The notes below the pieces were generated by a model. It was not told the origin of the DNA and ran no database searches. It saw nothing but the letters and a program-made list of their open reading frames with translations. The position numbers and the translations under genes are program-made. From NCBI GenBank assembly GCA_029210625.1, contig JARGFU010000008.1, forward strand, positions 138,661-202,660: 64,000 nucleotides of DNA, given 5' to 3'. Positions 3,001 to 25,955 of the stretch are shown in pieces; positions within the stretch are counted from its first letter, which is position 1; every line of letters begins with the position of its first letter. This DNA comes from Deltaproteobacteria bacterium (GTDB lineage Bacteria; Myxococcota; Myxococcia; SLRQ01).

Positions 3001-6000
3001 CTTCCCCTGGCTGCAGTCTCTCCTCGACCTCGACCTCGAGCTGGCCCGGACCATCTACCCTCCCGCGGCCTTCGACCCCGAGGCCGCCAAGCGGCAGCGC
3101 CGGGCCGTCACCGACACCCGGGTGGCGCAGCCCGCCCTCGGCCTGGTCGACCTCGCGGCCTTCCGCCTGCTCGGCTCCCTGCAGCTCGACCCCGCGATGG
3201 TGGCCGGACACAGCTACGGTGAGCTCGCCGCCCTCTGCGCCGCCGGCGCCCTCGAGCCCGAGGATCTGCTCGAGCTCTCGCGGGCCCGCGCCGAGGCCAT
3301 CCTCGAGGCCGCCGAGAGCTCCGAGGATCCCGGGACCATGGCGGCGGTGGGCGCCAGCGCCGACGTCGTCGCCGCCGCCCTCGCCGGCAACGACGAGGTC
3401 ACCCTCGCGAACTACAACGCCCCCAAGCAGACGGTGATCGCGGGCACCGAGGCCGCCATCGAGCGGGCGGTGGAGAAGCTCGGCGCCGACGGCCTGGCCG
3501 CCCGGCGGATCCCGGTGGCCTGCGCCTTCCACTCTCCCATCGTCGCCGGCGCCTCCGAGATCCTGGGCCGCTACCTGGAGACCGTCTCCCTGAAGACCCC
3601 CTCGCTGCCGGTCTACAGCAACACCGAGGCCGCCCCGCACGCCGATGATCCTGGCACCATCCGTCGGCTGCTCGCCGAGCACGTGGCCCGGCCGGTGCGC
3701 TTCCTCGACGAGATCGAGGCGATGTACGAGGACGGCGCGCGGGTCTTCGTCGAGGTCGGCCCCGGGCGGGTGCTCACCGACCTGACCGGCAAGATCCTCG
3801 GTGACCGCCCCCACCTGGCGGTGAGCCTGGAGCAGCCGGGACGCGACGGCCTCACCGGCCTGCTCCACACCCTGGGCCGCCTCGCCGCCGCCGGCGTCGC
3901 CTTCGATCCGGCGCCCCTCTTCGCCGGCCGGGAGGGCCGGCCCCTCGACCTCGAGTCGCCCGCCGCCCTCACCTCGCCGGCCGCCTGGAAGGTGGACGGT
4001 CACCGCGCCGTGCCGCGACGGGGCGAGCCGCCGGTCCACGGTCTGCAGGTGGTCGAGCAGCCCCTCGGCGTCGGACCGGGCGCCGGCCTGGGGCTGGGAG
4101 GCCCGACCGGTGAGCGCGGCGAGGTGATGGTGGAGTACCTGCGCGGGGTGCGGACCCTGGCCGCGGCCCAGCGCGACGTGCTCCTGACCTTCCTCGGCGG
4201 CACCCCGCCAGCAGCGGGCCCGGTGATCGAGACCACGGCCAGCCCGAGCGCCCCCGCCGAGCGCGCCGCCCTCGAGGCGGTGAGCGCCCCGGCGCCCTCC
4301 GGCGCCCCACCCGAGGAGAGGGATCCCGCCGAGGTGCTGATGCAGATCGTCAGCGAGCGCACCGGCTATCCCGAGTCGATGCTCGAGCTGGACCTCGACC
4401 TGGAGGCGGACCTCTCGATCGACTCGATCAAGCGGGTGGAGATCATCGGCCTGCTGGCCGAGCAGCTGGGCCTGGGCGGCGGCTCGGACGACGAGCGCGA
4501 CCGCCTGGTCGAGGAGCTCTCCCGGGTGAAGACCCTCCGCGGGATCCTCGAGTGGCTGGAGGAGCAGCTCCGCAAGGACGAGGAGGCCCCGGCCGCGTCC
4601 GAGGAGGAGGCGCCGGCGCCCGAGATCCCGGAGGCGACCCTGCGCTTCGTCTTCGAGGTCGCCGACGCCCCGCCCCTCGAGCGCCGCGGGAGCTCGCTGG
4701 CCGGCCAGACCTTCGTGCTCCACGGCGGCGACGACACCCTCCGGGGCGTCCTGCGCCGCCGGCTGGAGGGAGCGGGCGCGCACGTGCGCGTCGCCACCGA
4801 TCCGCTGCGCATCGACGCCGGCGATCGGCTGGTGCTCCTCGATCCGCTCTTGCGCGACGGTGAGGCGCGGCAGAGCCACCGCCTCTTCGCGCTGGCGGAC
4901 ATGGCCCGCAAGGCCCTGGGTGCCAGCGCCCGGGCCGTGATCGCGGCCACCACCCTCGGCCCCGGCTTCGGGCGGGAGAGCAGCGGCGACCTGCTGCCGG
5001 CCGCCGGCGTCGCCGGCCTCTTCAAGACCATCGCCCGGGAGTGGCCCGAGGCGCGGGTCCGCGCCGTGCACCTCGATCCCCGGGACGACGCCGAGACCAA
5101 GGCCGAGCATCTCCTCTCCGAGGCCATGGCCCAGGATGACATCGCCGAGGTCGGCTGGTTCGGCGGAAAGCGGCAGGTCCTCCGGGTGGTCGAGTCCCCC
5201 CGGCCGGGCAAGGGCGAGGCGAGCTTCTCCCTCCCCGAGGGCTCGGTCGTGCTCCTCACCGGCGGCGCCCGGGGCATCACCGCCCGGGTCGCCCTGGCCC
5301 TGGCGAGGAAGGGCGTGCGGCTGATCCTGGTGGGACGCAGCGCCGCCCCGGCCGCTCCGGAGAACGAGGCCCTGCGCGGCGCCACCACCGCCGTCGAGCT
5401 GCGCCGGAAGGTGGTCGAGCTGGAGCTCGCCTCCAGCCCGGCCGAGGTCGAGCGCATCTGCCGGACCCTCCTCGGTGAGCGGGCGCTGCGCGCGACCTTC
5501 GCCGCCCTGAAGACCACGGGGGCGAGCTTCGAGTACGAGACCTGCGACGTGCGCGATCGCTCGGCCTTCGGGCGCCTGATCGACTCCGTCTACGAGCGCC
5601 ACGGCCGCATCGACCTGGTGATCCACGGCGCCGGGGTGCTCGACGACCGGCTCCTGCGCGACAAGGACGCCGAGGGCTTCCAGCGGGTGGTCGACACCAA
5701 GGTCGAGGGGGCGCTCACCCTCGAGGCGCACCTCAAGCCCGACATCGGGCAGGTCGTCTTCTTCGGCAGCGTCAGCGGCGCCTTCGGCAACCGCGGGCAG
5801 GCCGACTACGCCGCCGCCAACGACGTCCTCGACAAGCTCGCCACCTCGATGAACCGCCGCCTCGAGGGGCGCGTGCTCTCCATCGACTGGGGCCCCTGGG
5901 GCGGAGGCGAGGGGATGATCGACGCGACCCTGGAGAAGGAGTACGCCCGCCGCGGCATCGGCCTCATCGCCCCCGAGGACGGCGTGCGCTGCCTCCTCGA

Positions 6001-6070
6001 GGAGCTCGCGCGCGAGGACGACGGCCCCCAGGTCCTCTACCTGCGCTCGGATCCCGAGCGCTTCGACTGA
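1..6070 (+). CDS. Iterative type I polyketide synthase, PUFA-synthase/heterocyst-glycolipid-synthase-like, domains ER(PfaD/FabK-type)-KS-AT-ACP-KR. The 5' end is truncated by the window edge.
   Basis: The frame is open from nt 2; the listed 98..6070 ORF begins at an internal TTG. An FMN-dependent ER motif (VAQGPMTRVSDVAAF) comes first. The KS has the active-site Cys (DAACASS) plus HGTGT and GHTKCAAG. The AT has GHSYGE. The ACP has LEADLSIDSIKRVEI. The KR has a Rossmann GGARGITA and a YAAAN motif. The stop is TGA at 6068-6070. Confidence 0.85.
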   Translation, partial: DIRVFARPDIPLAELGTRLPASLGGDDLQKQLLPLGQEAALAAGLAARHPTAGALVSAIRDAVGGHLHQARSLGSLAPGGPLARAHGIEVPVAQGPMTRVSDVAAFADDVSAAGALPFLALALLPRERAMALLQETAERMGDRPWGVGILGFVDEAIRKAHLEAILAARPTAALIGGGRPAQARQLEAEGIATYLHVPSPGLLDLFLREGARRFIFEGRECGGHVGPRSSFTLWEQQLTRLLDFDAPEELHIFFAGGIHDARSAAMVATLAAPLAARGAKIGILMGTAYLFTEEAVRSGAIVQGFQEAAIECEETVLLETSPGHASRCMETHYVDTFQEARVQLEAESKTPKEIWAALESLNLGRLRIASKGIRREGDALLDVEPETQRREGMYMLGQVAALRAEPTTLAELHREVSVGTQRYLEGLRIPERKRRAIPPADVAIVGMASIFPGAPDLPRYWSNVVLGVDSVTEVPASRWNQELYYDPDSQDGQRTPSKWGGFLSPIDFDPLAFGIPPNSLAAIEPVQLLALEVARRALIDAGYGERDFDRERTSVIFGAEAGTDLSAAYGFRNLYRQYLGELPEALDRALPSLTEDSFPGVLANVIAGRIANRLDLGGVNYTVDAACASSLAALDLACKELTAHTSDFVLCGGADLHNAIGDYLLFASTHALSPTGRCRTFDAKADGIALGEGVAVVALKRLADAERDGDRIYAVVKSVAGSSDGRSLGLTAPRKEGQKRALDRAYHRAGLSPAQIGLTEAHGTGTVVGDRTELGTLTETYSAAGVLPGTITLGSVKSNIGHTKCAAGLAGLIKVALSLHHRTLPPTLHIEKPNPAWEPGASPFVFRREAAPWPGREHAASVSAFGFGGTNFHAILAAHEDPSAPPAPGLIEWPAELFLFRDPEDLGRLAAVLEQGEPWCLRELAAALNARGDAGAPVQLAIVASTPSELKEKLVGARAGMAGDGIYPAEGHELAGGKLAFLFPGQGSQRPGMLAELFVAFPWLQSLLDLDLELARTIYPPAAFDPEAAKRQRRAVTDTRVAQPALGLVDLAAFRLLGSLQLDPAMVAGHSYGELAALCAAGALEPEDLLELSRARAEAILEAAESSEDPGTMAAVGASADVVAAALAGNDEVTLANYNAPKQTVIAGTEAAIERAVEKLGADGLAARRIPVACAFHSPIVAGASEILGRYLETVSLKTPSLPVYSNTEAAPHADDPGTIRRLLAEHVARPVRFLDEIEAMYEDGARVFVEVGPGRVLTDLTGKILGDRPHLAVSLEQPGRDGLTGLLHTLGRLAAAGVAFDPAPLFAGREGRPLDLESPAALTSPAAWKVDGHRAVPRRGEPPVHGLQVVEQPLGVGPGAGLGLGGPTGERGEVMVEYLRGVRTLAAAQRDVLLTFLGGTPPAAGPVIETTASPSAPAERAALEAVSAPAPSGAPPEERDPAEVLMQIVSERTGYPESMLELDLDLEADLSIDSIKRVEIIGLLAEQLGLGGGSDDERDRLVEELSRVKTLRGILEWLEEQLRKDEEAPAASEEEAPAPEIPEATLRFVFEVADAPPLERRGSSLAGQTFVLHGGDDTLRGVLRRRLEGAGAHVRVATDPLRIDAGDRLVLLDPLLRDGEARQSHRLFALADMARKALGASARAVIAATTLGPGFGRESSGDLLPAAGVAGLFKTIAREWPEARVRAVHLDPRDDAETKAEHLLSEAMAQDDIAEVGWFGGKRQVLRVVESPRPGKGEASFSLPEGSVVLLTGGARGITARVALALARKGVRLILVGRSAAPAAPENEALRGATTAVELRRKVVELELASSPAEVERICRTLLGERALRATFAALKTTGASFEYETCDVRDRSAFGRLIDSVYERHGRIDLVIHGAGVLDDRLLRDKDAEGFQRVVDTKVEGALTLEAHLKPDIGQVVFFGSVSGAFGNRGQADYAAANDVLDKLATSMNRRLEGRVLSIDWGPWGGGEGMIDATLEKEYARRGIGLIAPEDGVRCLLEELAREDDGPQVLYLRSDPERFD

Positions 6071-6077: not shown

Positions 6078-9000
6078 ATGGCGAACTCGCGCGGCATCGC
6101 CATCGTCGGACTGGGCGCACGCTTCCCGGGCGCCGAGGACGTCGAGCAGTTCTGGCGCAACATCGCCGCCGGTCACGACGCGATCGGGCCGGTCCCGGAG
6201 GAGCGGATCCCGGGCGTCTTCTTCGACGCGAGCACCAGCAGCATCGACCGGCTCCCCTGCCGCCGCGGCGGCTTCCTCGGGGCGAGCATCAACCTCGACG
6301 TCGCCGCCCACGGCCTGATGCCGGTGGCGGCCCGGGGGGCCGAGCCCGATCAGCTCCTGGCCCTCGACCTCGCGACCGCGACCTTCGCCGACGCGGGCTA
6401 CACCGAGGGCGGCTTCGATCGGAGCCGCACCGCGGTGATCCTGGGCCGGGGGGGCTACCTGGGACCGGGGCTGGTGCGGGCCGATCAGAGCGTGCGGGGC
6501 GCCGAGCAGCTCGCCGGCCTGCTGCGGCGGCTGCTCCCGGACCTGCCCCTGTCGCGGATCGAGGCCATCAAGGACGCCTACCAGGAGGCGGCGGGCCCCT
6601 ACGGTCCGGACACCGCCATCGGCCTGGTGCCGAACCTCGCCGCCTCCCGGATCGCCAACCGCCTCGATCTGCGCGGGCCAGCCTTCACCCTCGACGCCGC
6701 CTGCGCCAGCAGCCTCCTCGCGGTCGAGCAGGCGATGCTCCTCCTCGAGACCCGCCGGGCGGATCACGTCCTGGCCGGGGGCATCCACCTGGTGCAGGAC
6801 CCGACCTTCTGGAGCGTCTTCGCGCAGCTCGGCGCCCTCTCCCGCAGCGAGGCGATCCGCCCCTTCGACGCTCGCGCCGACGGCCTGCTCATCGGCGAGG
6901 GCGCGGGCTTCTTCCTCCTCGAGCGCCTCGAGGACGCCGAGGCCGCCGGTCACCGCATCTACGCGGTGATCCGCGGCGTGGGCTCGGCGAGCGACGGCCG
7001 GGGCACCTCGGTGATGCAGCCGAGGGCCGAGGGGCAGCGCCTGGCCCTGGAGCGGGCCTGGGAGGGATCGGGCCTCGAGCCCGCCCACATCGGGCTGGTC
7101 GAGGGGCACGGCACGGGCACCACCGCCGGGGACGGAGTGGAGCTCGAAACCCTGGCCCGCTTCTTCGGCCCGGCCGGGGAGGGCCCGCGCGCCAGCCTCG
7201 GCTCGGTGAAGTCGATGATCGGTCACACCATGCCGGCGGCGGGCGCCGCGGGGCTGATCAAGGCGGCCCTGGCGATCTTCCACCGCAGCCTGCCGCCCTC
7301 CCTCCACTGCGAGGAGCCCCACCCGAAGCTGGCGGCCACCCGCTTCGAGGTGCACGTCGCGGCCCGGCCCTGGACGACCGGCCCGGGAGAGGAGCGCGTC
7401 GCCGCGGTGAACGCCTTCGGCTTCGGTGGCATCGACGCCCACGTGGTGCTCTCCGAGGCCCCGGCGGGCAGCCGCCGGACCCACCGGGTGCAGGCCCTCG
7501 ACCGGGTCGAGCCCTCCTTCCCCGGCCTCCCCGACGAGGAGCGGACGGGGCTGCCCGAGGTGCTGCGCCTCGCTGGCGACTCGCCCGCCGCGCTCCTCGC
7601 GGCCCTCGAGCGCGGCGAGGGGCCGATCGGCACCGGCCCCTGCCGGCTGGCCGTCCTCCAGCCCACCCCCGAGCGCCTCGCCCGGGCGCGCCGGGTCGTC
7701 GAGCGCGGTGAGCCCTGGCGGGGCCGCGGCGGGATCTGGTTCGCCCCCGAGGGCCTGGCCCTGCAAGGCGGCAAGGTGGCCTTCCTCTTCCCGGGGGTGG
7801 ACGCCGACTTCCGCCCGCGGGTGCGCGAGCTCGCCGAGCACTTCGACCTCTCGCTGCCGCCGGAGCTCGAGGCCCTCGAGGCCGAGGAGGCGCCCCGCCG
7901 CCCCGAGGCCATCGACCGCACCGGGATGGGGATCTACCGGGTCAACCAGCTCTGCTTCGAGCTGCTCTCCCGGATCGGCCTCTTCGCCGACGCGATGGCC
8001 GGGCACAGCATCGGCGAGTGGAGCGCGATGATCCACGGCGGCCTCCTGCCGCAGGGCGCGGTGGAGGCCTTCCTGGAGGAGAGCGGCGGGCAGGCCCTCG
8101 AGGTGCCCGGCGTGCTCTTCGCCGCCGCCGCCTGCTCGGTGGACGACGCCCTCGACGCGATGACCGATCTGGAGGCCATCGGCCTCTCCCACGACAACTG
8201 CCCCCACCAGGTGATCCTCTGCGGGAAGGAGGAGAGCATCGAGACCGCCCGGGCCCGGCTGCTCTCCCGCGGCGCGGTCGTGCAGATCCTCCCCTTCCGC
8301 TCGGGCTTCCACTCCCGCCTCTTCGACGACTACCTCGACCCCCACCGCGCGCACTTCGAGCGGCTGCCCATCGAGGCGGCGCACACCACCGTCTGGTCGG
8401 CGACCACCTGCAGCCCCTTCCCGGTGGGCGCCGACGCCGTGCGCGAGCTCGCCCTGCGCCACCTCGTCGAGCCGGTGCGCTTCCGGGAGCTCATCGAGGC
8501 CCTCTACGATCACGGCCACTCGATCTTCGTGCAGGTGGGCACCGGCAGCCTGCCGGGCTTCGTCTCCGACACCCTCGGCGCGCGCCCCCACCTGACGGTC
8601 AGCGTCAGCGATCCGAAGCGCGGCGGCCTCGAGTCCCTCGCCCGCCTCGGCGCGGCCCTCTTCGTGGAGGGCATCGACCTCTGGGCCGGGATCGACCGCG
8701 CCAGGCGGCCCGGCCGGGAGGCGGCCTCCGGCGGCGGGGTGGAGACCGGGTCGAGGGGCCTGGAGCTCCCCCTGGGTGCGCCCTTCATCTCGGTGGGCGA
8801 GCCCCTGCCCTTCGGCAGCGCCGGCCCTCGCCTGCCCCCGCCCGCCCGCGGCGCGCTGCGGGATCCCCTGCGGGACGAGGTCGAGGCGACCCTCGAGGAC
8901 CTCTCCCGGATGCAGGCGGAGATCCTCGAGACCTACCAGCAGGCGCTGCGGGGGCGGAGCCGGCCCGTGCGGCAGCAGCGCACCCTCTCGGTGCGCACCG

Positions 9001-10439
9001 TGCCCGAGCTGATCGATCACAGCTTCTACCCGCAGGGCGAGGGGGCGACCCTGGCCGAGCGCGATCCCGTCGTGCCGATGACGATGTCGATCGAGCTCCT
9101 CCTGGAGCTCGCCCGCAAGGCCTTCCCCGGCCGCACCCCCGTCGCCCTCGAGGAGCTGCGGATGCACCAGTGGCTGCGGGTGCACCCGGCGGCGAAGGTG
9201 CAGCTCGTCGCCGAGCCCCGGGGAGACGATCGGGCCCACGTCGCCATCGAGGGCTTCTGCGAGGGCACCGTCCGCCTCGCCGACGCCTACCCCGCGCCGC
9301 CGGCCAGCCAGCTCCCCCCTCTCGCCGACGCCGGCCCGCCGCCCATCGACGCGGCCACCCTCTACGCCGACCGCTGGATGTTCCACGGGCCGGCCTACCA
9401 GGGCGTGCACACCATCGGCGCGCTCGGCGCCGGCGGCGTGGAGGGCAAGCTCAAGGTCACCGAGGGGCCCGGCGCCCTCCTCGACTCCCTCGGTCAGCTC
9501 TTCGGCTTCTGGCTGATGGCGACCCGCACCGAGGACAAGCTGGCCATGCCGATCGGCCTGGAGTCCCTCGAGCGCTTCGGCCCGCACCCGCAGGCTGGCG
9601 AGCTCCTCGACGCGCGGGTGCGGATCACTCACTGCGACGATCGCCGCCTGGTGGGGGACATGGAGGTCCTGCGCGGCGAGCAGGTCTGGTGCCGGATCCG
9701 CGGCTGGGCCGACCACCGCTTCCCCTCGGATCCGGACACCTGGAAGGTGCTGCAGCACCCCGAGCGCCACCGCCTCTCGGCGCGCCGGGAGCCCTACTTC
9801 CTCTTCGACGCCGCGCGCTGCCGGCCGCCCTCCCGGGACTGGCTGATCCGGCGGATGCTCTCGGAGCACGAGCGCACCACCCTCCTGGCCTCGGCGCCCC
9901 AGGCGCAGCGCGCCTACCTCCACGCGCGCATCGCCGGGAAGGACGCCGTGCGGAGCCTGCTGGAGCAGGGCGCCGAGCTCGCCGATCCTGGCGAGGCCAT
10001 CTTCCCCTCCACGCTCCCGCTCCTGGGCGATCACGAGGAGGGCCTGCGCCTGGCCGGCCCCCACGCTGGCGAGCTGAAGGTGGACGCCGCCACCGCCGGA
10101 GATCTCGCGGTGGCCCTCGCCTCCCGCAAGGGCGAGGTGGCCATCGCGCTCTACCCCCTGGGCAGCCTGCCGCCCGGCGCCCGCCAGGCGAGCTTCGCCA
10201 GCGACGAGCTGGATGCCGCGCGCGCAGCGGGCGCCGGTGACGACCTCGACGCCCGGCTCCACGTCTGCGCTGCCCGGGCCATCGCCTCCCGCCTGGCCGC
10301 GCGCGGCGGGGAGGCCGGGCCCCGCGAGGCGGACGCCGTGAGCGAGGGCCGGCCGGGCGGCCTGCGCGTCGGAGAGCTCTGGGTCGAGCTGCGGGTGGAC
10401 CTGGGCCACCTGGTGGCCTGGGCCCTGCGACCGGACTAG
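6078..10439 (+). CDS. Second PKS subunit: KS-AT-DH(hot-dog) plus a C-terminal ~230 aa tail with weak phosphopantetheinyl-transferase-like motifs.
   Basis: ATG at 6078 lies 8 nt after the upstream stop. The KS has DAACASS, EGHGTGT and GHTMPAAG. The AT has GHSIGEW. The hot-dog DH region has HQWLRVHP and LYADRWMFHGPAYQG. The tail contains LSEHERTTL and RIAGKDAVRSLLEQG, which resemble AcpS/Sfp motifs. Confidence 0.8.
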   Translation: MANSRGIAIVGLGARFPGAEDVEQFWRNIAAGHDAIGPVPEERIPGVFFDASTSSIDRLPCRRGGFLGASINLDVAAHGLMPVAARGAEPDQLLALDLATATFADAGYTEGGFDRSRTAVILGRGGYLGPGLVRADQSVRGAEQLAGLLRRLLPDLPLSRIEAIKDAYQEAAGPYGPDTAIGLVPNLAASRIANRLDLRGPAFTLDAACASSLLAVEQAMLLLETRRADHVLAGGIHLVQDPTFWSVFAQLGALSRSEAIRPFDARADGLLIGEGAGFFLLERLEDAEAAGHRIYAVIRGVGSASDGRGTSVMQPRAEGQRLALERAWEGSGLEPAHIGLVEGHGTGTTAGDGVELETLARFFGPAGEGPRASLGSVKSMIGHTMPAAGAAGLIKAALAIFHRSLPPSLHCEEPHPKLAATRFEVHVAARPWTTGPGEERVAAVNAFGFGGIDAHVVLSEAPAGSRRTHRVQALDRVEPSFPGLPDEERTGLPEVLRLAGDSPAALLAALERGEGPIGTGPCRLAVLQPTPERLARARRVVERGEPWRGRGGIWFAPEGLALQGGKVAFLFPGVDADFRPRVRELAEHFDLSLPPELEALEAEEAPRRPEAIDRTGMGIYRVNQLCFELLSRIGLFADAMAGHSIGEWSAMIHGGLLPQGAVEAFLEESGGQALEVPGVLFAAAACSVDDALDAMTDLEAIGLSHDNCPHQVILCGKEESIETARARLLSRGAVVQILPFRSGFHSRLFDDYLDPHRAHFERLPIEAAHTTVWSATTCSPFPVGADAVRELALRHLVEPVRFRELIEALYDHGHSIFVQVGTGSLPGFVSDTLGARPHLTVSVSDPKRGGLESLARLGAALFVEGIDLWAGIDRARRPGREAASGGGVETGSRGLELPLGAPFISVGEPLPFGSAGPRLPPPARGALRDPLRDEVEATLEDLSRMQAEILETYQQALRGRSRPVRQQRTLSVRTVPELIDHSFYPQGEGATLAERDPVVPMTMSIELLLELARKAFPGRTPVALEELRMHQWLRVHPAAKVQLVAEPRGDDRAHVAIEGFCEGTVRLADAYPAPPASQLPPLADAGPPPIDAATLYADRWMFHGPAYQGVHTIGALGAGGVEGKLKVTEGPGALLDSLGQLFGFWLMATRTEDKLAMPIGLESLERFGPHPQAGELLDARVRITHCDDRRLVGDMEVLRGEQVWCRIRGWADHRFPSDPDTWKVLQHPERHRLSARREPYFLFDAARCRPPSRDWLIRRMLSEHERTTLLASAPQAQRAYLHARIAGKDAVRSLLEQGAELADPGEAIFPSTLPLLGDHEEGLRLAGPHAGELKVDAATAGDLAVALASRKGEVAIALYPLGSLPPGARQASFASDELDAARAAGAGDDLDARLHVCAARAIASRLAARGGEAGPREADAVSEGRPGGLRVGELWVELRVDLGHLVAWALRPD

Positions 10440-11316: not shown

Positions 11317-11318
11317 CC

Positions 11319-15836: not shown

Positions 15837-15924
15837 CGACCCCGGTGAAAGCCCCCAGGGAGCTGCGCGAAGGGGAGGCCGATCGTTGTTCGCCCGCCAG
15901 GGGTGATCTACGGTCGAGATCATC

Positions 15925-18308: not shown

Positions 18309-18593
18309 ATGAGCACCGAGGCCAGCAAGCCGGAGATCCTCGCCGCCGTTCGCGGCTGCATCGTGGAGGTGGTCGGCGAGGCCTGGGCCTCGGAGGTGAC
18401 CATCGGCCCCGAGACCTCCTTCTCCGAGGATCTCGAGCTCGAGAGCATCGAGCTGGTCGCCCTCTCGGAGAAGCTCGCCGAGGCCTTCGGCGAGGGCATC
18501 GACTTCGTGGGCTGGCTCTCGGGGATGGAGCTCGACGCGATCCTGGAGCTGTCGGTGGGCGACGTGGTGGAGCACATCGAGTCGTGCCGCTGA
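18309..18593 (+). CDS. Acyl carrier protein (discrete).
   Basis: The 94 aa product has the DLELESIELVALSEKLAEAFG motif with a Ser in the DSL-like position. It lies 54 nt after the kinase. Its stop overlaps the next gene's GTG start. Confidence 0.7.
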   Translation: MSTEASKPEILAAVRGCIVEVVGEAWASEVTIGPETSFSEDLELESIELVALSEKLAEAFGEGIDFVGWLSGMELDAILELSVGDVVEHIESCR

Positions 18594-19369
18594 TCGACGC
18601 CGGCGGCCTCGAGCTCCACGTCCAGACCCTCGGGCCCGGCCCCGAAGCCCCCCGGCCCCCACCGCCGCCGGTGATCTTCCTCCACGGCCTGCTCGTGGGC
18701 TCGATGGCCACCTGGTACTTCTCCCTGGCCCCGGCCCTGGCGGCGCAGCGCAAGGTGGTGCTCTACGACCTGCGGGGCCACGGGCGCAGCGCGACCCCGG
18801 CGCGGGGCTACGCCCTCCACGATCACCTGGTGGACCTCGGCGCGGTGCTCGGCGCCTGTGAGGTGAAGAGCGGACCGGTGGTGCTGGTCGGCCACAGCTT
18901 CGGCGCCCTCGTCGCCCTCATGGCGACCCTGCGGCGGCCCGAGCGCGTGGCGAAGCTCGTGCTCTGCGAGCTGCCCCTGCCCCCGGCCTCGGCCGGCGTG
19001 ATCCCCGATCCCGCGCAGATCGACGTCGAGGGGCTCTTCGCCTCCCTGCCGCCGGCCGTGCAGGCGGCCGTCGCCGAGGGGGGTCGGCGCGGCCGGCGCT
19101 TCGTGGAGCGGGTGCGCACGCTGGTCGAGGAGACCTCCCTGCTCGCCGACCTCTTCGCCATGACCGACGTCGACGACACGGACCTCGGCGGCCTGATGAC
19201 CCCCACCCTGGCCCTCTACGGCCGGGACTCCCTCTGCCTGCCGACCGGCGAGCGCCTCGCCCGGGTGATGCCGGCCGCGCGGCTCGTCACCCTGCCCGGC
19301 GGGCACTTCCTGCCGGTGGAGTCGCCCGACGCGGTGGGCGAGGCGGTGAAGGAGTTCCTCGGTGGCTGA
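18584..19369 (+). CDS. Alpha/beta-hydrolase fold protein.
   Basis: GTG at 18584 overlaps the ACP stop. The nucleophile elbow is VGHSFGAL. HGLLVGS fits an oxyanion region. It is a paralog of the next gene, sharing an N-terminal GGLELHVQTLG / GGLKLHVQSLG segment. Confidence 0.8.
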   Translation: MPLIDAGGLELHVQTLGPGPEAPRPPPPPVIFLHGLLVGSMATWYFSLAPALAAQRKVVLYDLRGHGRSATPARGYALHDHLVDLGAVLGACEVKSGPVVLVGHSFGALVALMATLRRPERVAKLVLCELPLPPASAGVIPDPAQIDVEGLFASLPPAVQAAVAEGGRRGRRFVERVRTLVEETSLLADLFAMTDVDDTDLGGLMTPTLALYGRDSLCLPTGERLARVMPAARLVTLPGGHFLPVESPDAVGEAVKEFLGG

Positions 19370-20156
19370 AGTCCTCGTCGGTGGCCTGAAGCTCCACGTC
19401 CAGAGCCTGGGGCAGAGCCCGGGGGAGGACCGGGCCGAGCGAGCCCCGGCCCTCTTCCTCCACGGCCTGGTGATGGACAACCTCTCCTCCTGGTTCTTCA
19501 CCGTCGCCGGCAAGGCCGCCGCCGAGCGCCGGGTCGTGCTCCACGACCTGCGCGGCCACGGGCGGAGCGAGCGGCCGGCGAGCGGCTACACCCTGCCGGA
19601 GCTGACCGGCGAGATCGTCGGGGTCCTCGACGCCCTCGGCGTCGAGCAGCCGGTGCAGGTGGTGGGCAACTCCTTCGGCGGCCTGCTGGCGATCTGCCTC
19701 GCCCTCGAGCACCCGGAGCGGGTAGCCAGCCTGGCGCTGGTCGACGCCCTGCTCCCCGAGCCCGGCTGGGCCGGGAACATGCGCGCCACCCTCTCGCTGG
19801 AGGGCGACGCGGCCGACAGCCGCATCGCCTCGGACTTCAAGAGCTGGCTCGGCCGCCACAGCGCCCGCAAGCGCAACCGCCTGGCCGACGCCGCCCGGAC
19901 GCTGGTGAAGGAGACCAGCCTCCTCGACGACCTGGAGACCTCGCCGACCCACGAGGACGCGGCCTACGAGCGCATCACCGCGCCGGTCCTCGCCCTCTAC
20001 GGCGGCGCCTCCGATCAGCGCGCGGCCGGCGAGCGCCTCTGCGCCCGCCTGCCCGACGCTCGCCTGGAGATCGTCCCCGGCGCGACCCACTCGATCCTCT
20101 GGGAGGCCACCGACCTCCTCACCGAGCGCCTGCTGGCCTGGCTGGCCCTGCGCTAA
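19362..20156 (+). CDS. Alpha/beta-hydrolase fold protein, tandem paralog.
   Basis: GTG start overlaps the preceding stop by 8 nt. GNSFGG is the nucleophile motif. A His is present near the C-terminus (GATHSILWE). Confidence 0.8.
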   Translation: MAEVLVGGLKLHVQSLGQSPGEDRAERAPALFLHGLVMDNLSSWFFTVAGKAAAERRVVLHDLRGHGRSERPASGYTLPELTGEIVGVLDALGVEQPVQVVGNSFGGLLAICLALEHPERVASLALVDALLPEPGWAGNMRATLSLEGDAADSRIASDFKSWLGRHSARKRNRLADAARTLVKETSLLDDLETSPTHEDAAYERITAPVLALYGGASDQRAAGERLCARLPDARLEIVPGATHSILWEATDLLTERLLAWLALR

Positions 20157-20896: not shown

Positions 20897-20930
20897 CGAT
20901 CCTCCACGCCAGGTCGGGACGAGGCCTCGC

Positions 20931-21569: not shown

Positions 21570-21709
21570 CGCCGGCCATTCTAGGACCGAATCCCCTCCC
21601 GGCGGTCGGGAACCCTGGCTGGACCTCGGGGTCGATACGCACCAGGAGGCCCGCGATGGCGAGACGTCAGAGGACGCGACGACCCTGGGAGCCACCCCGC
21701 AGCACGGGG

Positions 21710-22258: not shown

Positions 22259-22818
22259 TCCCGGGAGATCTCCTGGGTGCTGCCCGCGCCGATGGTGACC
22301 AGGGCCTTGCCGAAGACCAGGTGGTAGGTGGCGGCGATGCGGAAGCCGCCGAGGTTGATGCCGAGCTGGGGCGCGATGGCGAAGGTGCGACCGGCGTCGA
22401 TGGAGGCGCCGCTGGTGCCGCCGCCCAGGCCCGCCGAGGTCATGGCGCCGAAGCCGAAGCCGACGAAGGGCCGGACCTTCGAGGTGGTGAAGAACCACTC
22501 ACCCTTGAGGTAGCCGGCGGCGTTCAGGCGCATGCCCACGCTGACGCTGTTGCCGCCGTCGTCGAAGCTGCCCATGAAGAGCACGGCAGCCTCCATGCGG
22601 AGGCCCACCGCCAGGTTGTCCATCAGGTTGACCTTCGGCTCCGCGATCGCGCCGAAGCCGTAGGCCCCGGGGTTGCCCAGGCCGAAGGCGCCGGTGACGC
22701 CCGACTCGGTGCGGAAGAGCTGGTAGTTCTCGGCCGGGATCTTGGTCGAGATGCCGGCGAAGGCCGTGGCCGGGGCGAGGATCGCGACGGCGAGAAGAGC
22801 GGTGAGCAGGCGCTGCAT
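22048..22818 (-). CDS. Outer-membrane beta-barrel protein (OmpW/OmpA-barrel-like) with a Pro/Ala-rich C-terminal tail; the 3' end is uncertain.
   Basis: The signal peptide is MQRLLTALLAVAILAPATAFA. Alternating amphipathic strands with Gly-rich turns follow, and the last strand is IELTGRF. The tail overlaps the exbD-like gene at 22048-22258. Confidence 0.6.
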   Translation of the reverse strand: MQRLLTALLAVAILAPATAFAGISTKIPAENYQLFRTESGVTGAFGLGNPGAYGFGAIAEPKVNLMDNLAVGLRMEAAVLFMGSFDDGGNSVSVGMRLNAAGYLKGEWFFTTSKVRPFVGFGFGAMTSAGLGGGTSGASIDAGRTFAIAPQLGINLGGFRIAATYHLVFGKALVTIGAGSTQEISRDYLAIELTGRFGGKRTKARATPGAVEPPAAAPAPALEEAPAGPEAETTRSGKRVVAPSSRVASMARTTTV

Positions 22819-22917: not shown

Positions 22918-24099
22918 ATGGCCCGCTTCCTCGTCATCGTCCCCCCACTCGCAGGTCACATCAACCCCACCCTCGCGGTGGGGGCCGCCCTGGAGCGCCG
23001 GGGACACGAGGTGGCCTGGGTCGGGCACCCCGGCGCGCTGGACGCCCGGCTGCCGGCCTCGGCCCGCCGCTACGAGCTGCCCGACGCGGTGCCGGCCGGG
23101 CTCCTGCGGACGATGACCGACCGCTCGAACAAGGTGCGCGGCCTGGCGAGCCTGAAGTTCCTCTGGGAGGACTTCCTGGTGCCCCTGGCCCGGGCGATGC
23201 TGCCCCAGCTGCCGGCCGTGCTCGACGACTACCGCCCGGACGTCCTCCTGGTCGATCAGCAGGCGGTGGCCGGCGCCCTCGTCGCCCGGCAGCGGGGGCT
23301 GCCCTGGGCCACCTCCTGCTCGACCTCGGCGGGGGTGACCGCGCCCCTGGCCGGGCTGCCGAAGGTGCAGGCGTGGCTCGACGAGCAGCTCGCCGCCCTG
23401 GTGGCCGAGGCGGGCCTCCCCGCGACCCCCGAGCCCGATCGCTCGCCCCACCTGGTGCTGGTCTACTCCAGCCGGGAGCTGGCCGCCCCCGACCAGAGCT
23501 TCCCGGAGCAGATCCGCTTCGTCGGACCCTCCCTGGGCCGGAAGGGTCCGCCGGTGGACTTCCCCTGGGAGGCCCTCGACCCCTCCCGCCCGAAGGTCCT
23601 CGTCAGCCTCGGCACGGTGAACGCCGAGCGGGGCGCCCGCTTCTTCGCCGCCGCCGCCGAGGCCCTCGCGGCGATGGAGGTGCAGGGCATCCTCGTTGCG
23701 CCGGAGGGGAGGGTGGGCGATCTTCCGACGAACGTGATCCGCCGCGACTTCGTCCCGCAGCTCGAGCTGCTGCCCCACCTCTCGGCGGTGATCTGCCACG
23801 GCGGCCAGAACACCGTCAGCGAGTCCCTCGCCCACGGGCTGCCCCTCCTCGTCGCTCCGATCCGCGACGACCAGCCGGTGATCGCCGAACAGGTGGTCGC
23901 CGCCGGCTGCGGCCTGCGCCTGCGCTTCTCGCGCTCGGGCGCCGCCGAGATCCGCGAGGCCCTCGAGGCGATCCTCTCCGACGAGGGCTACGCCGCGCGG
24001 GCCGCGGCGATCGGCGAGAGCCTGAAGCGCGCCGGCGGCGCCGAGGCGGCGGCCGAGGCCCTGATCGCCCTCGACGCCGGGGCGGGGACGCGCGCGTGA
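22918..24099 (+). CDS. GT1-family UDP-glycosyltransferase (MGT/CrtX-like).
   Basis: ATG at 22918. The UDPGT signature CHGGQNTVSESLAHGLPLLVAPIRDDQP is present. The N-terminal acceptor domain is MARFLVIVPPLAGHINP. Confidence 0.85.
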   Translation: MARFLVIVPPLAGHINPTLAVGAALERRGHEVAWVGHPGALDARLPASARRYELPDAVPAGLLRTMTDRSNKVRGLASLKFLWEDFLVPLARAMLPQLPAVLDDYRPDVLLVDQQAVAGALVARQRGLPWATSCSTSAGVTAPLAGLPKVQAWLDEQLAALVAEAGLPATPEPDRSPHLVLVYSSRELAAPDQSFPEQIRFVGPSLGRKGPPVDFPWEALDPSRPKVLVSLGTVNAERGARFFAAAAEALAAMEVQGILVAPEGRVGDLPTNVIRRDFVPQLELLPHLSAVICHGGQNTVSESLAHGLPLLVAPIRDDQPVIAEQVVAAGCGLRLRFSRSGAAEIREALEAILSDEGYAARAAAIGESLKRAGGAEAAAEALIALDAGAGTRA

Positions 24100-25955
24100 G
24101 CTGGGTCGCCCTGATCCTCGCCGCCCTCTGGCTCGGCGACGTCTGGCGCCTGCGCGGACGGCTGGCGAAGCTGCCTCGCCTCCCCTTCGGACCCGAGAGC
24201 GCTGGCGCCGACGAGGCGGACCTCTCGGAGTGGACCCACCTGCTGGCCCCCGGGGCCGAGCTCTCCCGCCACACCTTGCGCGCGGCCGTCGCCCTGGCCG
24301 AGGAGCAGGGCTGGGAGGCGGTGGACCTGATCCCCGGTGATCTGCCGGCCGAGGGGCTGCTAGGGCTCCTGGCGACCTATGATCCCGAGCGCTGGCGCGA
24401 GGATCCCTTCCGCCCGGTGCGCAGCGCCGGTCAGGTGCTGGTCGTTCGCCGGGCGCTCGTCGAGCGCTGCGGCCTCGAGCTCACCGAGGGCGAGCTGCCG
24501 AGCCTGGCGGCCTTCCTCGAGGCCGCCGGCGAGATCCGCCGCTGCACCACCCGGCGCGAGGCGAGCGGTCACGGCTCGGGCCTGGCCCTGGCCCCGGGGC
24601 TGCGAGCCGGTCCCCGGAGCATGGCCGAGGAGCGCACCCTCTTCGACGCCGTGGTCGGGCGGGGGGCGCCCTTCGTCCTGGGCGCCCAGGGCGGCGTGCT
24701 GGCGCTCCTGCTGCTGACCCTGGTGCTGGCGCCGGCCCCGGGGCTGATCGCCCTGCTGGTCTTCCACCTCCAGCCCCTGCTGATCACCGCCGGCCGGGGC
24801 GCGCAGCCCGCCGACACCGGCGCCCTGACCCTCCTGCGGGTCCCCCTGACCCTCTGGCGCTGGGGGCGGCTGGTGCGCGCCGGCAGCGGCGAGCAGCGCC
24901 TGGCCCTCCCCGAGGCCCGCTCGGCCTACGCCGGCCTCCTCGAGGGGGGCACCGCGAGCTTCTTCGAGCCGCGCCGCACCGCCTGCCCCCACTGCGGCGG
25001 CGAGACCCTCTACGAGCACCTCACCACCGGCGACCTCTACCAGCAGAAGCCCGGCACCTTCACCCTGGAGCGCTGCGGCGACTGCTCCCTCATCTTCCAG
25101 AACCCCCGCCTCTCCCTCGAGGGCCTCTCCTTCTACTACCGGGACTTCTACGACGGCCTGGGCGAGGCCGGGATGGAGACGATCTTCGGCGCCTCCCTGC
25201 CGGCCTACCACGCGCGGGCGCAGGCGCTGGAGGGGCTCTCGGATCCGAAGCGCTGGCTCGACGTGGGCGGGGGCCACGGCCACTTCTGCGTGATCGCGCG
25301 CGAGCACTTCCCCGGCTGCCGCTTCGAGATCCTCGACCTCGCCGACAGCGTCGAGGCCGCGAAGCGCCGGGGCTGGGTGGACGAGGGCCACCGCGGGCTC
25401 TTCCCCGAGTCCGCCGAGGGGCTGGGCCGCTACGACGTGGTGAGCATGAGCCACTACCTCGAGCACGTCCGCGATCAAGAGGCGGAGATCGAGGCCGCCG
25501 CCCGGGTGCTGCCCGTGGGCGGGCACCTGATGATCGAGATCCCGGACCCCGAGTCGAAGCTCCCGAAGCTCCTCGGCCGCCACTGGATCCCCTTCTTCCA
25601 GCCGCAGCACCAGCACTTCCTGGCGCCGCGCCACGTGGACGAGCTGCTGCAGCGCCATGGCTTCACGCCGGTGCGCTGGGCGCGGGGCAGCGCCCACATC
25701 CCGGTGGACTTCTTCATGGCCTCCTGGATCCTCGTCACCCGCCTGGCGGGTAGCCCCGGGAGGCCCTGGCTGCCGGCGCCCACGATGGCCGACTGGGTGC
25801 GCCACGACCTGGTCTGGGCCCTGGGCTTCTGGCTCCTGCCCGCGGGCTGGATCGTCGATCGCGTGGCCGAGCGGGCCTTGCGCAAGGGCGGCTGGTCGAA
25901 CGCCTTCCGCGTCGTGGCCCGGAAGGACCGCGACGATCCGGCCGCCGGCGAGTAG
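24096..25955 (+). CDS. Fusion protein: N-terminal ~330 aa multi-TM domain of unknown function, a zinc ribbon, and a class I SAM-dependent methyltransferase.
   Basis: GTG at 24096 overlaps the GT stop as GTGA. TM segments are VALILAALWLG and GVLALLLLTLVLAPAPGLIALLVF. The zinc ribbon is CPHCGG...CGDCS. The MTase motif I is LDVGGGHGHF and the post-I region is RYDVVSMSHYLEHV. Confidence 0.75.
   Translation: MSWVALILAALWLGDVWRLRGRLAKLPRLPFGPESAGADEADLSEWTHLLAPGAELSRHTLRAAVALAEEQGWEAVDLIPGDLPAEGLLGLLATYDPERWREDPFRPVRSAGQVLVVRRALVERCGLELTEGELPSLAAFLEAAGEIRRCTTRREASGHGSGLALAPGLRAGPRSMAEERTLFDAVVGRGAPFVLGAQGGVLALLLLTLVLAPAPGLIALLVFHLQPLLITAGRGAQPADTGALTLLRVPLTLWRWGRLVRAGSGEQRLALPEARSAYAGLLEGGTASFFEPRRTACPHCGGETLYEHLTTGDLYQQKPGTFTLERCGDCSLIFQNPRLSLEGLSFYYRDFYDGLGEAGMETIFGASLPAYHARAQALEGLSDPKRWLDVGGGHGHFCVIAREHFPGCRFEILDLADSVEAAKRRGWVDEGHRGLFPESAEGLGRYDVVSMSHYLEHVRDQEAEIEAAARVLPVGGHLMIEIPDPESKLPKLLGRHWIPFFQPQHQHFLAPRHVDELLQRHGFTPVRWARGSAHIPVDFFMASWILVTRLAGSPGRPWLPAPTMADWVRHDLVWALGFWLLPAGWIVDRVAERALRKGGWSNAFRVVARKDRDDPAAGE

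What the first reader, a model, noticed from the sequence alone, without database searches (positions are those of the whole stretch)
22918..25955. GT1 glycosyltransferase start-overlapped with a fusion of a membrane domain, a zinc ribbon and a SAM methyltransferase
The GT stop overlaps the next gene's GTG as GTGA, which implies co-translation. The downstream 620 aa protein fuses an uncharacterised ~330 aa multi-TM N-terminal domain to a C-terminal zinc-ribbon plus class I methyltransferase. CxxC...CxxC followed by GxGxG is the arrangement seen in sugar and lipid C/O-methyltransferases. Together they suggest glycosylation plus methylation of a membrane-embedded lipid acceptor. That acceptor could be a carotenoid, a glycolipid, or the product of the PKS or FAAL systems in this window.
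Basis: partly seen in the sequence, partly recalled or inferred. Interest (0 to 1): 0.5.

Follow-up and report, generated by a model that had tools for sequence, protein, structure and literature searches.

The report
Glycolipid tailoring pair of lipid-synthase cluster
These two overlapping genes, a sugar-adding enzyme and a membrane-anchored methyl-adding enzyme with a hidden, probably inactive second sugar-transferase-like domain, are the conserved last two genes of a lipid-making gene cluster found in hundreds of bacterial species, and the product of that cluster has not been identified.

Summary
A GT1 glycosyltransferase (22918-24099) ends in a GTGA overlap with a 619-aa protein (24096-25955) that has transmembrane helices, an invariant four-cysteine zinc ribbon and a class I SAM methyltransferase.

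New findings:
2. The pair is the 3' end of a conserved seven-gene cluster. The order is PfaA-like PKS (ER-KS-AT-ACP-KR), PfaC-like PKS (KS-CLF-DH-PPTase), ACP, one or two alpha/beta hydrolases, GT1, then this fusion. The full set lies upstream in 62 of 65 loci with enough flank, across Myxococcota, Actinomycetota, Planctomycetota and others (at least 583 species). The 4-nt overlap is kept in 43 of 76 loci.
3. In this window the cluster is split into three pieces by lineage-specific insertions.

Best reading: glycosylation followed by methylation of a PKS-made long-chain lipid at the inner face of the membrane. The carotenoid and FAAL alternatives are not supported. I found no paper describing the product.

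The parts
22918..24099 (+). GT1 (GT-B, MGT/OleD/YjiC-like) UDP-glycosyltransferase, 393 aa
   Evidence: Translation. Pfam PF06722 and PF00201, TIGR01426 at 180 bits. PDB relatives are YjiC, OleI/OleD and Kcn28 at E 1e-26 to 1e-34. It lies directly upstream of the fusion gene in 72 of 76 loci.
24096..24099 (+). GTGA stop/start overlap (translational coupling junction)
   Evidence: Sequence. An NTGA overlap at the same junction is found in 43 of 76 related loci.
24096..25955 (+). 619-aa fusion protein: GT2-like membrane module, zinc ribbon, class I SAM methyltransferase with a hydrophobic cap
   Evidence: Translation. More than 1150 full-length homologues of about 600 aa. AlphaFold2 model with pLDDT 92.1 and pTM 0.91.
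24096..24152 (+). TM helix 1 (aa 1-19), followed by the conserved basic stretch R18/R20/R22
   Evidence: Hydropathy, DSSP helix 2-25, conservation.
24171..24620 (+). Cytosolic GT-A-like alpha/beta domain (aa ~26-175) with strands at 46-50, 73-80, 114-118 and 160-166. D77, D96, R101 and K148 are conserved. There is no DxD.
24651..24803 (+). TM hairpin (aa 186-236) with conserved G216, Q226, P227 and G233
   Evidence: Hydropathy peak 2.54, helices 176-211 and 213-231, conservation.
24816..24941 (+). Amphipathic, basic helices (aa 241-282) with invariant R248 and conserved R275 and Y278. Probably interface helices at the inner leaflet.
   Evidence: DSSP, charge and hydropathy, conservation. The interface role is inferred by analogy with hyaluronan synthase.
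24984..25085 (+). Four-cysteine zinc ribbon (C297, C300, C327, C330)
   Evidence: Invariant in 40 sequences. Weak zf-ChsH2 hits in 30 of the 39 full-length homologues scanned. Beta-hairpins at 305-311 and 322-327.
25095..25157 (+). Near-invariant linker motif FQNPRLSxxGLxFYYxDFYDG (aa 334-354)
   Evidence: Conservation. A role in the substrate pocket is inferred only.
25221..25685 (+). Class I SAM methyltransferase core (aa 376-530) with D389-V-G-x-G-x-G395 and S450-M-S-H-Y-L-E-H457
25698..25889 (+). Three-helix insertion (aa 535-598) before the final strand (aa 603-610). Two helices are hydrophobic and Trp-rich. P557-W558 and D588 are invariant. Probably a membrane-dipping substrate cap.
   Evidence: DSSP, hydropathy, conservation. 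The function is inferred.
2..6070 (+). Cluster partner: PfaA-like synthase ER(NMO)-KS-AT-ACP-KR (5' end cut by the window)
   Evidence: Pfam, TIGR02813 at 924 bits, conserved upstream of the pair.
6078..10439 (+). Cluster partner: PfaC-like synthase KS-CLF/AT-like-DH (the C-terminus is homologous to the PPTase-bearing relatives)
   Evidence: Pfam. Relatives carry PF01648. tblastn aligns to about residue 1450.
18309..18593 (+). Cluster partner: stand-alone ACP (94 aa)
   Evidence: PF00550. Conserved position in 63 of 65 loci.
18584..19369 (+). Cluster partner: alpha/beta hydrolase 1 (GHSFG nucleophile motif). Its start overlaps the ACP stop.
   Evidence: Pfam, translation, synteny.
19362..20156 (+). 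Cluster partner: alpha/beta hydrolase 2 (GNSFG motif). It is fused to the GT1 in L001/L002.
   Evidence: Pfam, translation, 658-aa fusion protein in L001.

Best explanation
The two genes are the terminal tailoring enzymes of a conserved 'secondary lipid' cluster built on a PUFA-synthase-like iterative type I FAS/PKS. The steps below are marked shown or inferred.

Shown: the cluster encodes a PfaA-like ER-KS-AT-ACP-KR protein, a PfaC-like KS-CLF-DH-PPTase protein, a stand-alone ACP and one or two serine alpha/beta hydrolases. It then encodes the GT1 and the fusion protein, in that order. The last two are usually translationally coupled.

Inferred: the synthase makes a long, largely reduced acyl chain. 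The hydrolases off-load it from the carrier protein. The soluble GT1 attaches a hexose from a nucleotide sugar to a hydroxyl or carboxyl of that lipid at the cytoplasmic face of the inner membrane.

Inferred: the fusion protein then methylates the glycolipid with SAM, most likely on the sugar. It sits in the membrane through three TM helices with both globular parts in the cytoplasm.

Inferred: its N-terminal domain is a stripped-down hyaluronan-synthase-like GT-A module that has lost the metal-binding DxD. It most likely no longer transfers sugar. It probably serves as the membrane anchor and the headgroup or lipid docking site that presents the substrate to the methyltransferase. The methyltransferase's hydrophobic cap helices pack against the membrane.

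The product would be an O-methyl-glycosyl long-chain lipid of the cell envelope. It would be functionally analogous to heterocyst glycolipids.
For: Synteny: PKS1, PKS2, ACP, hydrolase(s), GT and the fusion gene lie in the same order and on the same strand in the gene tables of three distant relatives. The same holds in 62 of 65 loci with at least 7.5 kb of upstream flank, and GT is directly upstream in 72 of 76 loci. These loci span Myxococcota, Bradymonadia, Oligoflexus, Planctomycetota and many Actinomycetota.

Coupling: the 4-nt overlap is conserved in 43 of 76 loci. A hydrolase-GT fusion protein exists in L001.

No gene downstream of the fusion gene is conserved, so it ends the cluster.

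Topology: basic residues follow TM1 and the hairpin.

Sugar-related accessory genes in variant clusters:
- a GHMP/galactokinase-like gene between GT and the fusion gene in a Nocardia locus, L060; three other Actinomycetota loci have a gap of similar size that was not examined;
- an NDP-sugar nucleotidyltransferase and a 4,6-dehydratase next to the pair in an acidobacterial MAG, L076;
- an Acyl_transf_3 O-acyltransferase after the fusion gene in L038.

Against: In this window the cluster is interrupted twice, so co-expression of the pair with the PKS genes is not guaranteed here.

Five loci carry the fusion gene without a GT directly upstream. Two of these have under 0.7 kb of upstream sequence. 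In L062 and L071 the neighbouring genes examined are unrelated to lipid synthesis.
Confidence: 0.6

Rival explanations
1. The methyltransferase acts before the glycosyltransferase. Like TcaB9, KijD1 and MtmC, it would methylate a nucleotide-activated sugar, which the GT1 then transfers to the lipid. The GT-A-like N-domain would serve as the NDP-sugar binding module.
Against: The conserved seven-gene cluster has no 4,6-dehydratase or other source of a 4-keto sugar, which C3-methylation chemistry needs. Pfam PF08421 and PF08484, typical of that family, are not matched. Three TM helices and a hydrophobic cap are hard to justify for a soluble substrate.
Confidence: 0.15
2. The N-terminal GT2-like module is catalytically active and adds a second sugar or transfers sugar to a lipid phosphate. 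The protein would then be a bifunctional glycosyl- and methyltransferase.
For: Its fold is closest to real membrane GT2 enzymes. Conservation is high at charged positions D77, D96, R101, K148 and R248. The domain is never lost from the family.
Against: There is no conserved DxD, no QxxRW and no catalytic-base motif. The cytosolic part is only about 150 aa with four strands. No GT2 HMM matches any of the 40 sequences scanned, and there is no PDB sequence match.
Confidence: 0.12
3. BioC/BioH-like logic. The methyltransferase would cap a malonyl or carboxyl group on the stand-alone ACP so that the synthase can elongate it. An alpha/beta hydrolase would later remove the methyl ester. This gives a dicarboxylic or omega-functionalised lipid that the GT then glycosylates.
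Against: All these similarities are generic to the superfamilies and far below the family cutoffs. The methyltransferase is membrane-embedded and is coupled to the GT, not to the ACP.
Confidence: 0.05
4. Carotenoid glycoside tailoring (CrtX-like GT plus methylation), or decoration of the product of the FAAL cluster at 41183-49205.
For: GT1 enzymes of this subfamily include carotenoid glucosyltransferases (general knowledge). A FAAL-type cluster lies 15 kb downstream in this window.
Against: No carotenoid genes appear in any neighbourhood table. The FAAL gene has a relative near the fusion gene in only 1 of about 80 other loci and the other four genes of that cluster in none, while the PKS set is found in 62 of 65.
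Confidence: 0.03
5. A macrolide-inactivating or self-resistance GT (MGT/OleD type) that happens to sit next to an unrelated methyltransferase.
For: The best NCBIfam model is TIGR01426, the macrolide GT family, at 180 bits. OleI and OleD are among the PDB relatives.
Against: The score is below the family cutoff of 260. The strict and widespread coupling to the fusion gene and the PKS cluster argues against it.
Confidence: 0.02

Closest known systems
Heterocyst glycolipid (hgl) pathway of cyanobacteria (Shulse & Allen Type F secondary lipid synthase, PMC3098273)
   Same: A PfaA/PfaC-like iterative synthase makes a long alkyl chain that is glycosylated to give an envelope glycolipid. The gene-cluster logic is synthase first, then glycosyltransferase.
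   Different: This cluster has an ER fused to the PfaA-like protein and DH plus PPTase on the PfaC-like protein. It has a separate ACP and alpha/beta hydrolases instead of a reductive release step. It uses a GT1 of the MGT/YjiC type and adds the GT2-like/zinc-ribbon/methyltransferase fusion. It occurs in Myxococcota, Actinomycetota and others, not in cyanobacteria.
Azotobacter vinelandii phenolic-lipid synthase (Type P; PMC3098273, PMC13291983)
   Same: A two-protein PUFA-synthase-like FAS provides a C22-C26 saturated chain for a specialised envelope lipid.
   Different: The head group there is made by type III PKSs. Here the tailoring genes are a GT1 and a methyltransferase fusion, and no type III PKS is present.
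Zinc-ribbon NDP-sugar C3-methyltransferases TcaB9, KijD1 and MtmC (PDB 3ndi, 5t64, 4rv9)
   Different: Identity is only 16-18%. Their Pfam families PF08421 and PF08484 are not matched. They are soluble enzymes acting on dTDP-4-keto sugars. They have no TM helices, no GT-A-like module and no hydrophobic cap.
Membrane-embedded GT2 synthases (hyaluronan synthase 8snc/8smm, BcsA 4p00, chitin synthases) and the GT2 enzymes PcManGT 6yv7 and ArnC 8vxh
   Different: Identity is 6-15%. The cytosolic core is about half the usual size. There is no conserved DxD, catalytic base or QxxRW. There are only three TM helices, so a translocation channel is unlikely. No sequence-level relationship is detectable.
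GT1 UDP-glycosyltransferases YjiC, OleD/OleI and Kcn28 (MGT subfamily, TIGR01426)
   Same: A full-length sequence match for the upstream GT, with E 1e-26 to 1e-34 to the PDB entries. Both Pfam domains match.
   Different: The score is below the TIGR01426 cutoff. The context is a lipid synthase cluster, not a macrolide or enediyne cluster.

Membership tests
GT1 / GT-B nucleotide-sugar glycosyltransferase (MGT subfamily) - upstream gene | Sequence match to the GT1 C-terminal nucleotide-sugar binding domain (PF00201/PF06722) | tested here: met
   PF06722 3.6e-18 and PF00201 3.2e-16, both above their cutoffs. PDB YjiC and OleI at 1e-26 to 1e-32.
GT1 / GT-B nucleotide-sugar glycosyltransferase (MGT subfamily) - upstream gene | Score above the TIGR01426 'macrolide family glycosyltransferase' cutoff | tested here: not met
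   179.9 bits against a cutoff of 260. It is a related GT1 but not a curated member of that subfamily.
Class I SAM-dependent methyltransferase - C-terminal half of the fusion | Rossmann-like fold with the glycine-rich SAM motif | tested here: met
TcaB9/KijD1-type NDP-sugar C-methyltransferases | N-terminal four-Cys zinc ribbon preceding the methyltransferase domain | tested here: met
TcaB9/KijD1-type NDP-sugar C-methyltransferases | Sequence membership (PF08421 zinc-binding domain and PF08484 C-terminal domain) | tested here: not met
   Neither family is reported at E <= 0.1. Identity to these chains is only 16-18%.
TcaB9/KijD1-type NDP-sugar C-methyltransferases | A 4-keto NDP-sugar supply (4,6-dehydratase) in the pathway | tested here: not met
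   None in the conserved seven-gene cluster. Present only in the rearranged acidobacterial locus L076.
GT2 / GT-A membrane glycosyltransferases (hyaluronan, cellulose and chitin synthase type) - N-terminal module | GT-A fold with flanking TM and interface helices | tested here: met
GT2 / GT-A membrane glycosyltransferases (hyaluronan, cellulose and chitin synthase type) - N-terminal module | Conserved DxD metal and nucleotide-sugar binding motif | tested here: not met
   The only conserved acidic residues are D15, D77 and D96 (D240 is nearly invariant in the 13-sequence N-domain alignment). No D-x-D column is found in either the 40- or the 13-sequence alignment.
GT2 / GT-A membrane glycosyltransferases (hyaluronan, cellulose and chitin synthase type) - N-terminal module | Q(Q/R)xRW motif and catalytic base of the processive GT2 enzymes | tested here: not met
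   The amphipathic helix 241-262 carries a conserved LLRxP...W with invariant R248, but no QxxRW. Structural equivalence of that helix could not be checked residue by residue.
GT2 / GT-A membrane glycosyltransferases (hyaluronan, cellulose and chitin synthase type) - N-terminal module | Detectable sequence homology to GT2 families | tested here: not met
   No Pfam hit on the N-domain in any of the 40 sequences scanned. No NCBIfam hit. A profile search of PDB found nothing. A profile search of 1.84 billion representatives found only this fusion family.
GT2 / GT-A membrane glycosyltransferases (hyaluronan, cellulose and chitin synthase type) - N-terminal module | Glycosyl transfer activity | not testable with these tools
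   Needs an enzyme assay.
PUFA-synthase-like 'secondary lipid' gene cluster (Shulse & Allen 2011) | PfaA-like KS-AT-ACP-KR and PfaC-like KS-CLF-DH proteins with ER and PPTase | tested here: met
   Pfam domains. TIGR02813 PfaA at 924 bits, just under its cutoff of 1010. PF01648 is present in the relatives' PKS2.
PUFA-synthase-like 'secondary lipid' gene cluster (Shulse & Allen 2011) | Assignment to one of the published types (L, M, P and others) | tested here: inconclusive
   The paper's text gives no domain order for Type M, and its figures are not held.
Heterocyst-glycolipid-like pathway | Product is a glycosylated long-chain lipid | not testable with these tools
   Needs lipid analysis of mutants or heterologous expression.

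The most novel reading that the evidence does not exclude
The cluster may make a previously unrecognised class of methylated glycolipid with a very long PKS-derived chain. It would be shared by Myxococcota, many Actinomycetota, Planctomycetota and others, and might be an envelope or resting-cell barrier lipid comparable to heterocyst glycolipids. Its last enzyme would be a new kind of membrane methyltransferase. In that enzyme a relic hyaluronan-synthase-like GT2 module, invisible to sequence searches, has been re-used as the lipid or headgroup docking device. Alternatively the module is still a minimal, DxD-less glycosyltransferase.
Probability: 0.2. Interest if true: 0.75.

Novelty: new variant of a known kind. 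Interest (0 to 1): 0.55.

Why it matters
Only a handful of products of PUFA-synthase-like 'secondary lipid' clusters are known, namely heterocyst glycolipids, Azotobacter phenolic lipids and PUFAs (PMC13291983, PMC3098273). This work defines a seven-gene cluster of that kind. It is conserved almost gene for gene in at least 583 species of several phyla, including cultivable Streptomyces, Kibdelosporangium, Embleya, Actinoplanes and Nocardia. It ends with a glycosyltransferase and methyltransferase pair. That makes the product directly testable in tractable strains.

The work also gives an example of a domain that no sequence method recognises but whose predicted structure places it with the membrane GT2 synthases. 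This would be a possible case of a pseudo-glycosyltransferase recruited as a substrate-presenting module for another enzyme.

If the lipid is an envelope component of spores, cysts or fruiting bodies, it would be relevant to the cell biology of differentiating bacteria. It could also serve as an environmental lipid biomarker.

Tried and rejected
- Six literature searches found no paper describing this cluster's product or the fusion protein (one further query was rejected for syntax). Shulse & Allen 2011 lists related uncharacterised types, but the type could not be assigned from the text.
- Foldseek against AFDB50 was not available.
- Sequence searches of the N-domain against Pfam, NCBIfam and PDB gave nothing.
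- The exhaustive HMMER search showed no other architecture containing the N-domain, apart from C-terminal LCM-methyltransferase extensions.
- The window's own protein, P0001, is not in the gene-position index, so the source contig could not be retrieved.
- Model coordinates are not exposed. I could not check residue-level superposition on hyaluronan synthase, domain contacts or pocket geometry.
- Carotenoid, FAAL and macrolide-resistance readings are rejected on synteny.
- The neighbouring radical SAM gene (27004-28203), the lipoprotein-like gene (25959-26939) and the three genes inserted at 20201-22818 were tested as possible partners. None is found near the pair elsewhere.
- Five loci have no GT directly upstream of the fusion gene. 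Two have under 0.7 kb of upstream sequence. Neighbouring genes were scanned in three (L062, L071, L082): two showed housekeeping-type genes and one gave no Pfam hit, which adds no functional clue.


Full report
**Observation**

The GT gene is 22918-24099 (+), 393 aa. The second gene is 24096-25955 (+), 619 aa. Its GTG shares the bases GTGA with the GT stop codon. A codon-usage gene caller trained on long ORFs of the window picks exactly these two genes. The N-termini of homologues align to the same start residues.

The pair is flanked by genes on the opposite strand: 22048-22818 upstream and 25959-26939 downstream. Locally it is therefore a two-gene operon.

**What the two proteins are**

The upstream protein is a GT1 (GT-B) nucleotide-sugar glycosyltransferase. 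It matches PF06722 and PF00201. Its closest solved relatives are YjiC, OleI/OleD and Kcn28. It scores 180 bits on TIGR01426, below the cutoff of 260. It is a relative of the macrolide GT subfamily, not a curated member.

For the downstream protein, Pfam sees only a Methyltransf_23 domain at aa 376-526 and a faint zinc ribbon. Nothing matches aa 1-285, in this protein or in any of the 40 sequences scanned.

An alignment of 40 full-length homologues (41-56% identity) gives the following:
- four invariant cysteines: C297, C300, C327, C330;
- an invariant SAM motif: D389-V-G-x-G-x-G395;
- a near-invariant linker motif: FQNPRLSxxGLxFYYxDFYDG;
- in the N-terminal part, conserved D15, R18, R20, R22, D77, L78, P80, D96, R101, K148, G216, Q226, P227, G233, R248, R275 and Y278.

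**Structure**

AlphaFold2 with this alignment gives a confident single-unit model for the whole protein (pLDDT 92.1, pTM 0.91). It also gives a confident model for aa 1-289 alone (pLDDT 91.8).

The N-terminal part consists of:
- one TM helix (aa 1-19);
- a four-stranded alpha/beta domain (aa ~26-175);
- a strongly hydrophobic helical hairpin (aa 186-236);
- two basic amphipathic helices (aa 241-282).

The likeness is fold-only. Identity is 6-15%. The cytosolic core is about half the normal size. The alignments contain no conserved DxD, no QxxRW and no obvious catalytic base. A profile of the module finds nothing in the PDB by sequence.

In an exhaustive HMMER search of 1.84 billion representative proteins, the profile finds only 359 clusters. 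The 150 best that are listed are fusions of about 600 aa, shorter proteins that are probably fragments, or a few longer forms. Two of the longer forms scanned have a C-terminal extension carrying a second methyltransferase domain of the LCM type.

I therefore treat the module as a GT2-like pseudo-glycosyltransferase that is specific to this fusion. The conserved charged residues leave room for residual nucleotide-sugar binding or catalysis.

A three-helix insertion (aa 535-598) precedes the final strand (aa 603-610). Two of its helices are hydrophobic and tryptophan-rich, and P557-W558 and D588 are invariant. I infer that this is a membrane-dipping substrate cap.

The basic residues after TM1 and after the hairpin put both globular parts in the cytoplasm. 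This is an inference from the positive-inside rule.

**Genomic context elsewhere**

Context is the most informative evidence. Three distant relatives were examined: two Myxococcota and one Bradymonadia. In all three the gene tables show the same seven-gene order:
1. PfaA-like ER-KS-AT-ACP-KR;
2. PfaC-like KS-CLF-DH-PPTase;
3. a small ACP;
4. alpha/beta hydrolase 1;
5. alpha/beta hydrolase 2;
6. GT1;
7. the fusion gene.

In one of them, hydrolase 2 and the GT1 form a single 658-aa protein.

A scan of one genome per species found at least 583 species with a relative. They include Kofleriaceae, Polyangiaceae, Haliangiales, Bradymonadia, Oligoflexus, Planctomycetota, Acidobacteria and many Actinomycetota. 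The Actinomycetota include Acidimicrobiales, Microthrixaceae, Streptomyces, Kibdelosporangium, Embleya, Actinoplanes, Nocardia, Crossiella, Umezawaea and Actinomadura.

tblastn of the window's proteins against the 84 loci held gives these counts:
- The GT lies directly upstream on the same strand in 72 of 76 loci.
- The whole set of PKS2, ACP, hydrolase and GT lies upstream in 62 of 65 loci with at least 7.5 kb of flank.
- The 4-nt NTGA overlap between the GT and the fusion gene is kept in 43 of 76 loci.
- No gene downstream of the fusion gene is shared by more than 8 loci, so this gene ends the conserved cluster.

Variant clusters add sugar-related genes:
- a GHMP/galactokinase-like gene between the GT and the fusion gene in a Nocardia locus, L060; three other Actinomycetota loci have a gap of similar size there that I did not examine;
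- an NDP-sugar nucleotidyltransferase and a 4,6-dehydratase in a rearranged acidobacterial locus;
- an Acyl_transf_3 O-acyltransferase after the fusion gene in L038;
- a second methyltransferase, either fused or adjacent.

**The cluster in this window**

All seven genes are present here:
- PKS genes at 2-6070 and 6078-10439;
- ACP at 18309-18593;
- hydrolases at 18584-19369 and 19362-20156, both with GxSxG motifs;
- the GT and fusion genes at 22918-25955.

The cluster is broken by two insertions. The first is 7.9 kb (10436-18255) and includes a class II aldolase, an S49 peptidase and a hybrid histidine kinase. The second is 2.7 kb (20201-22818) and carries three minus-strand genes. Of the seven inserted genes tested, only the histidine kinase has a relative near the pair, in one other locus. 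The nearest relative, P0002, has a 75-aa minus-strand gene at the same hydrolase/GT junction.

Of the FAAL-type cluster at 41183-49205, only the FAAL gene has a relative near the pair elsewhere, in one locus.

**Mechanism**

What is shown: the domain identities, the fold assignments, the topology elements, the gene order and its conservation, and the conserved stop/start overlap.

What is inferred:
- The synthase makes a long reduced acyl chain.
- The hydrolases release it.
- The GT1 glycosylates it at the cytoplasmic face of the membrane.
- The fusion protein then methylates the glycolipid, most likely on the sugar. The GT2-like relic and the hydrophobic cap hold the substrate at the membrane interface.

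I give this reading 0.6.

Rivals:
- Methylation of the nucleotide sugar before transfer (0.15). It is supported by the TcaB9-like architecture and the L076 variant. It is weakened by the absence of a 4-keto-sugar supply in the conserved cluster and by the membrane anchoring.
- An active minimal GT2 (0.12).
- A BioC/BioH-like capping scheme (0.05).
- Carotenoid or FAAL acceptors (0.03).
- A macrolide-resistance GT (0.02).

**Comparison with known systems, and novelty**

The logic of a PUFA-synthase-like lipid synthase plus a glycosyltransferase is that of heterocyst glycolipids. The synthase pair recalls the Azotobacter phenolic-lipid system (PMC3098273, PMC13291983).

The GT family, the release enzymes and above all the terminal fusion protein are different. 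None of my six literature searches found a description of the product. A 2026 survey states that only a handful of such specialised lipids are known (PMC13291983).

Databases label the fusion protein simply 'class I SAM-dependent methyltransferase'.

I rate this a new variant of a known kind. It is an orphan but very widespread secondary-lipid cluster, whose last enzyme contains a GT2-like domain hidden from sequence methods. Interest is 0.55. It is not a surprise in principle. It is, however, a well-defined and testable target present in cultivable strains.

Noticed in passing
window 10436-18255 and 20201-22818: The seven-gene cluster is contiguous in almost all other loci but is split into three pieces here. 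A 7.9 kb insertion includes a class II aldolase, an S49 peptidase and a hybrid histidine kinase/response regulator. A 2.7 kb insertion carries three minus-strand genes: a 231-aa TM protein, a PF04199 cyclase and a 256-aa signal-peptide protein. Of the seven inserted genes tested, only the histidine kinase has a relative near the pair, in one other locus. The nearest relative, L085, has a 75-aa gene at the second junction.
   Followed up: partly
window 41183-49205: A separate lipid-type cluster: AMP-binding (FAAL-like) enzyme, NAD-dependent epimerase/reductase, an 84-aa ORF (43941-44195, possibly a carrier protein), a B12-binding radical SAM enzyme, an acyl-CoA dehydrogenase and a DAO-type FAD oxidoreductase. 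Apart from a FAAL relative in one locus, it is not linked to the GT/methyltransferase pair elsewhere.
   Followed up: partly
L001/L002 6028-8004: Alpha/beta hydrolase 2 and the GT1 are fused into one 658-aa protein in a marine Myxococcota genome. This suggests that the two act consecutively or as a complex.
   Followed up: no
P0169 (897 aa), P0183 (966 aa); L004 6329-7150: Some relatives carry a second methyltransferase. It is either a leucine-carboxyl-methyltransferase-family (PF04072) domain fused to the C-terminus of the fusion protein, or a UbiE-like methyltransferase gene immediately downstream. Their products may be doubly methylated.
   Followed up: partly
L060 8754-9845 (gaps of similar size in L053, L067, L079): In a Nocardia locus a 363-aa GHMP-kinase/galactokinase-like gene sits between the GT1 and the fusion gene (PF00288 3.6e-6, PF10509 0.006). 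It may provide a dedicated sugar-1-phosphate supply. Three other Actinomycetota loci have a gap of about 1.0-1.4 kb at the same junction that I did not examine.
   Followed up: partly
L076 10001-15171: In an acidobacterial MAG the order is rearranged. The fusion gene comes first, followed by a divergent GT1 (29% identity), an NDP-sugar nucleotidyltransferase and an NDP-hexose 4,6-dehydratase. The PfaA-like PKS lies downstream. This would fit a 6-deoxyhexose variant of the product.
   Followed up: partly
L038 11954-13537 and 3541-5181: In a proteobacterial MAG the fusion gene is followed by an Acyl_transf_3 membrane O-acyltransferase. A protein with a condensation-like domain lies upstream, and the PKS is on the opposite strand.
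   Followed up: no
L070 and L072: Crossiella sp. S99.2 carries two copies of the fusion gene with its GT, ACP and hydrolases. The second copy (L072) has no PKS hit in the 10 kb of upstream sequence held.
   Followed up: no
window 27004-28203: A 399-aa radical SAM protein sits about 1 kb downstream of the pair on the same strand (PF04055 1.2e-23). It is not conserved next to the pair in other loci.
   Followed up: partly
window 18584-18593 and 19362-19369: The ACP stop overlaps the hydrolase 1 start by 10 nt, and the hydrolase 1 stop overlaps the hydrolase 2 start by 8 nt. The middle fragment of the cluster is therefore also translationally coupled.
   Followed up: no
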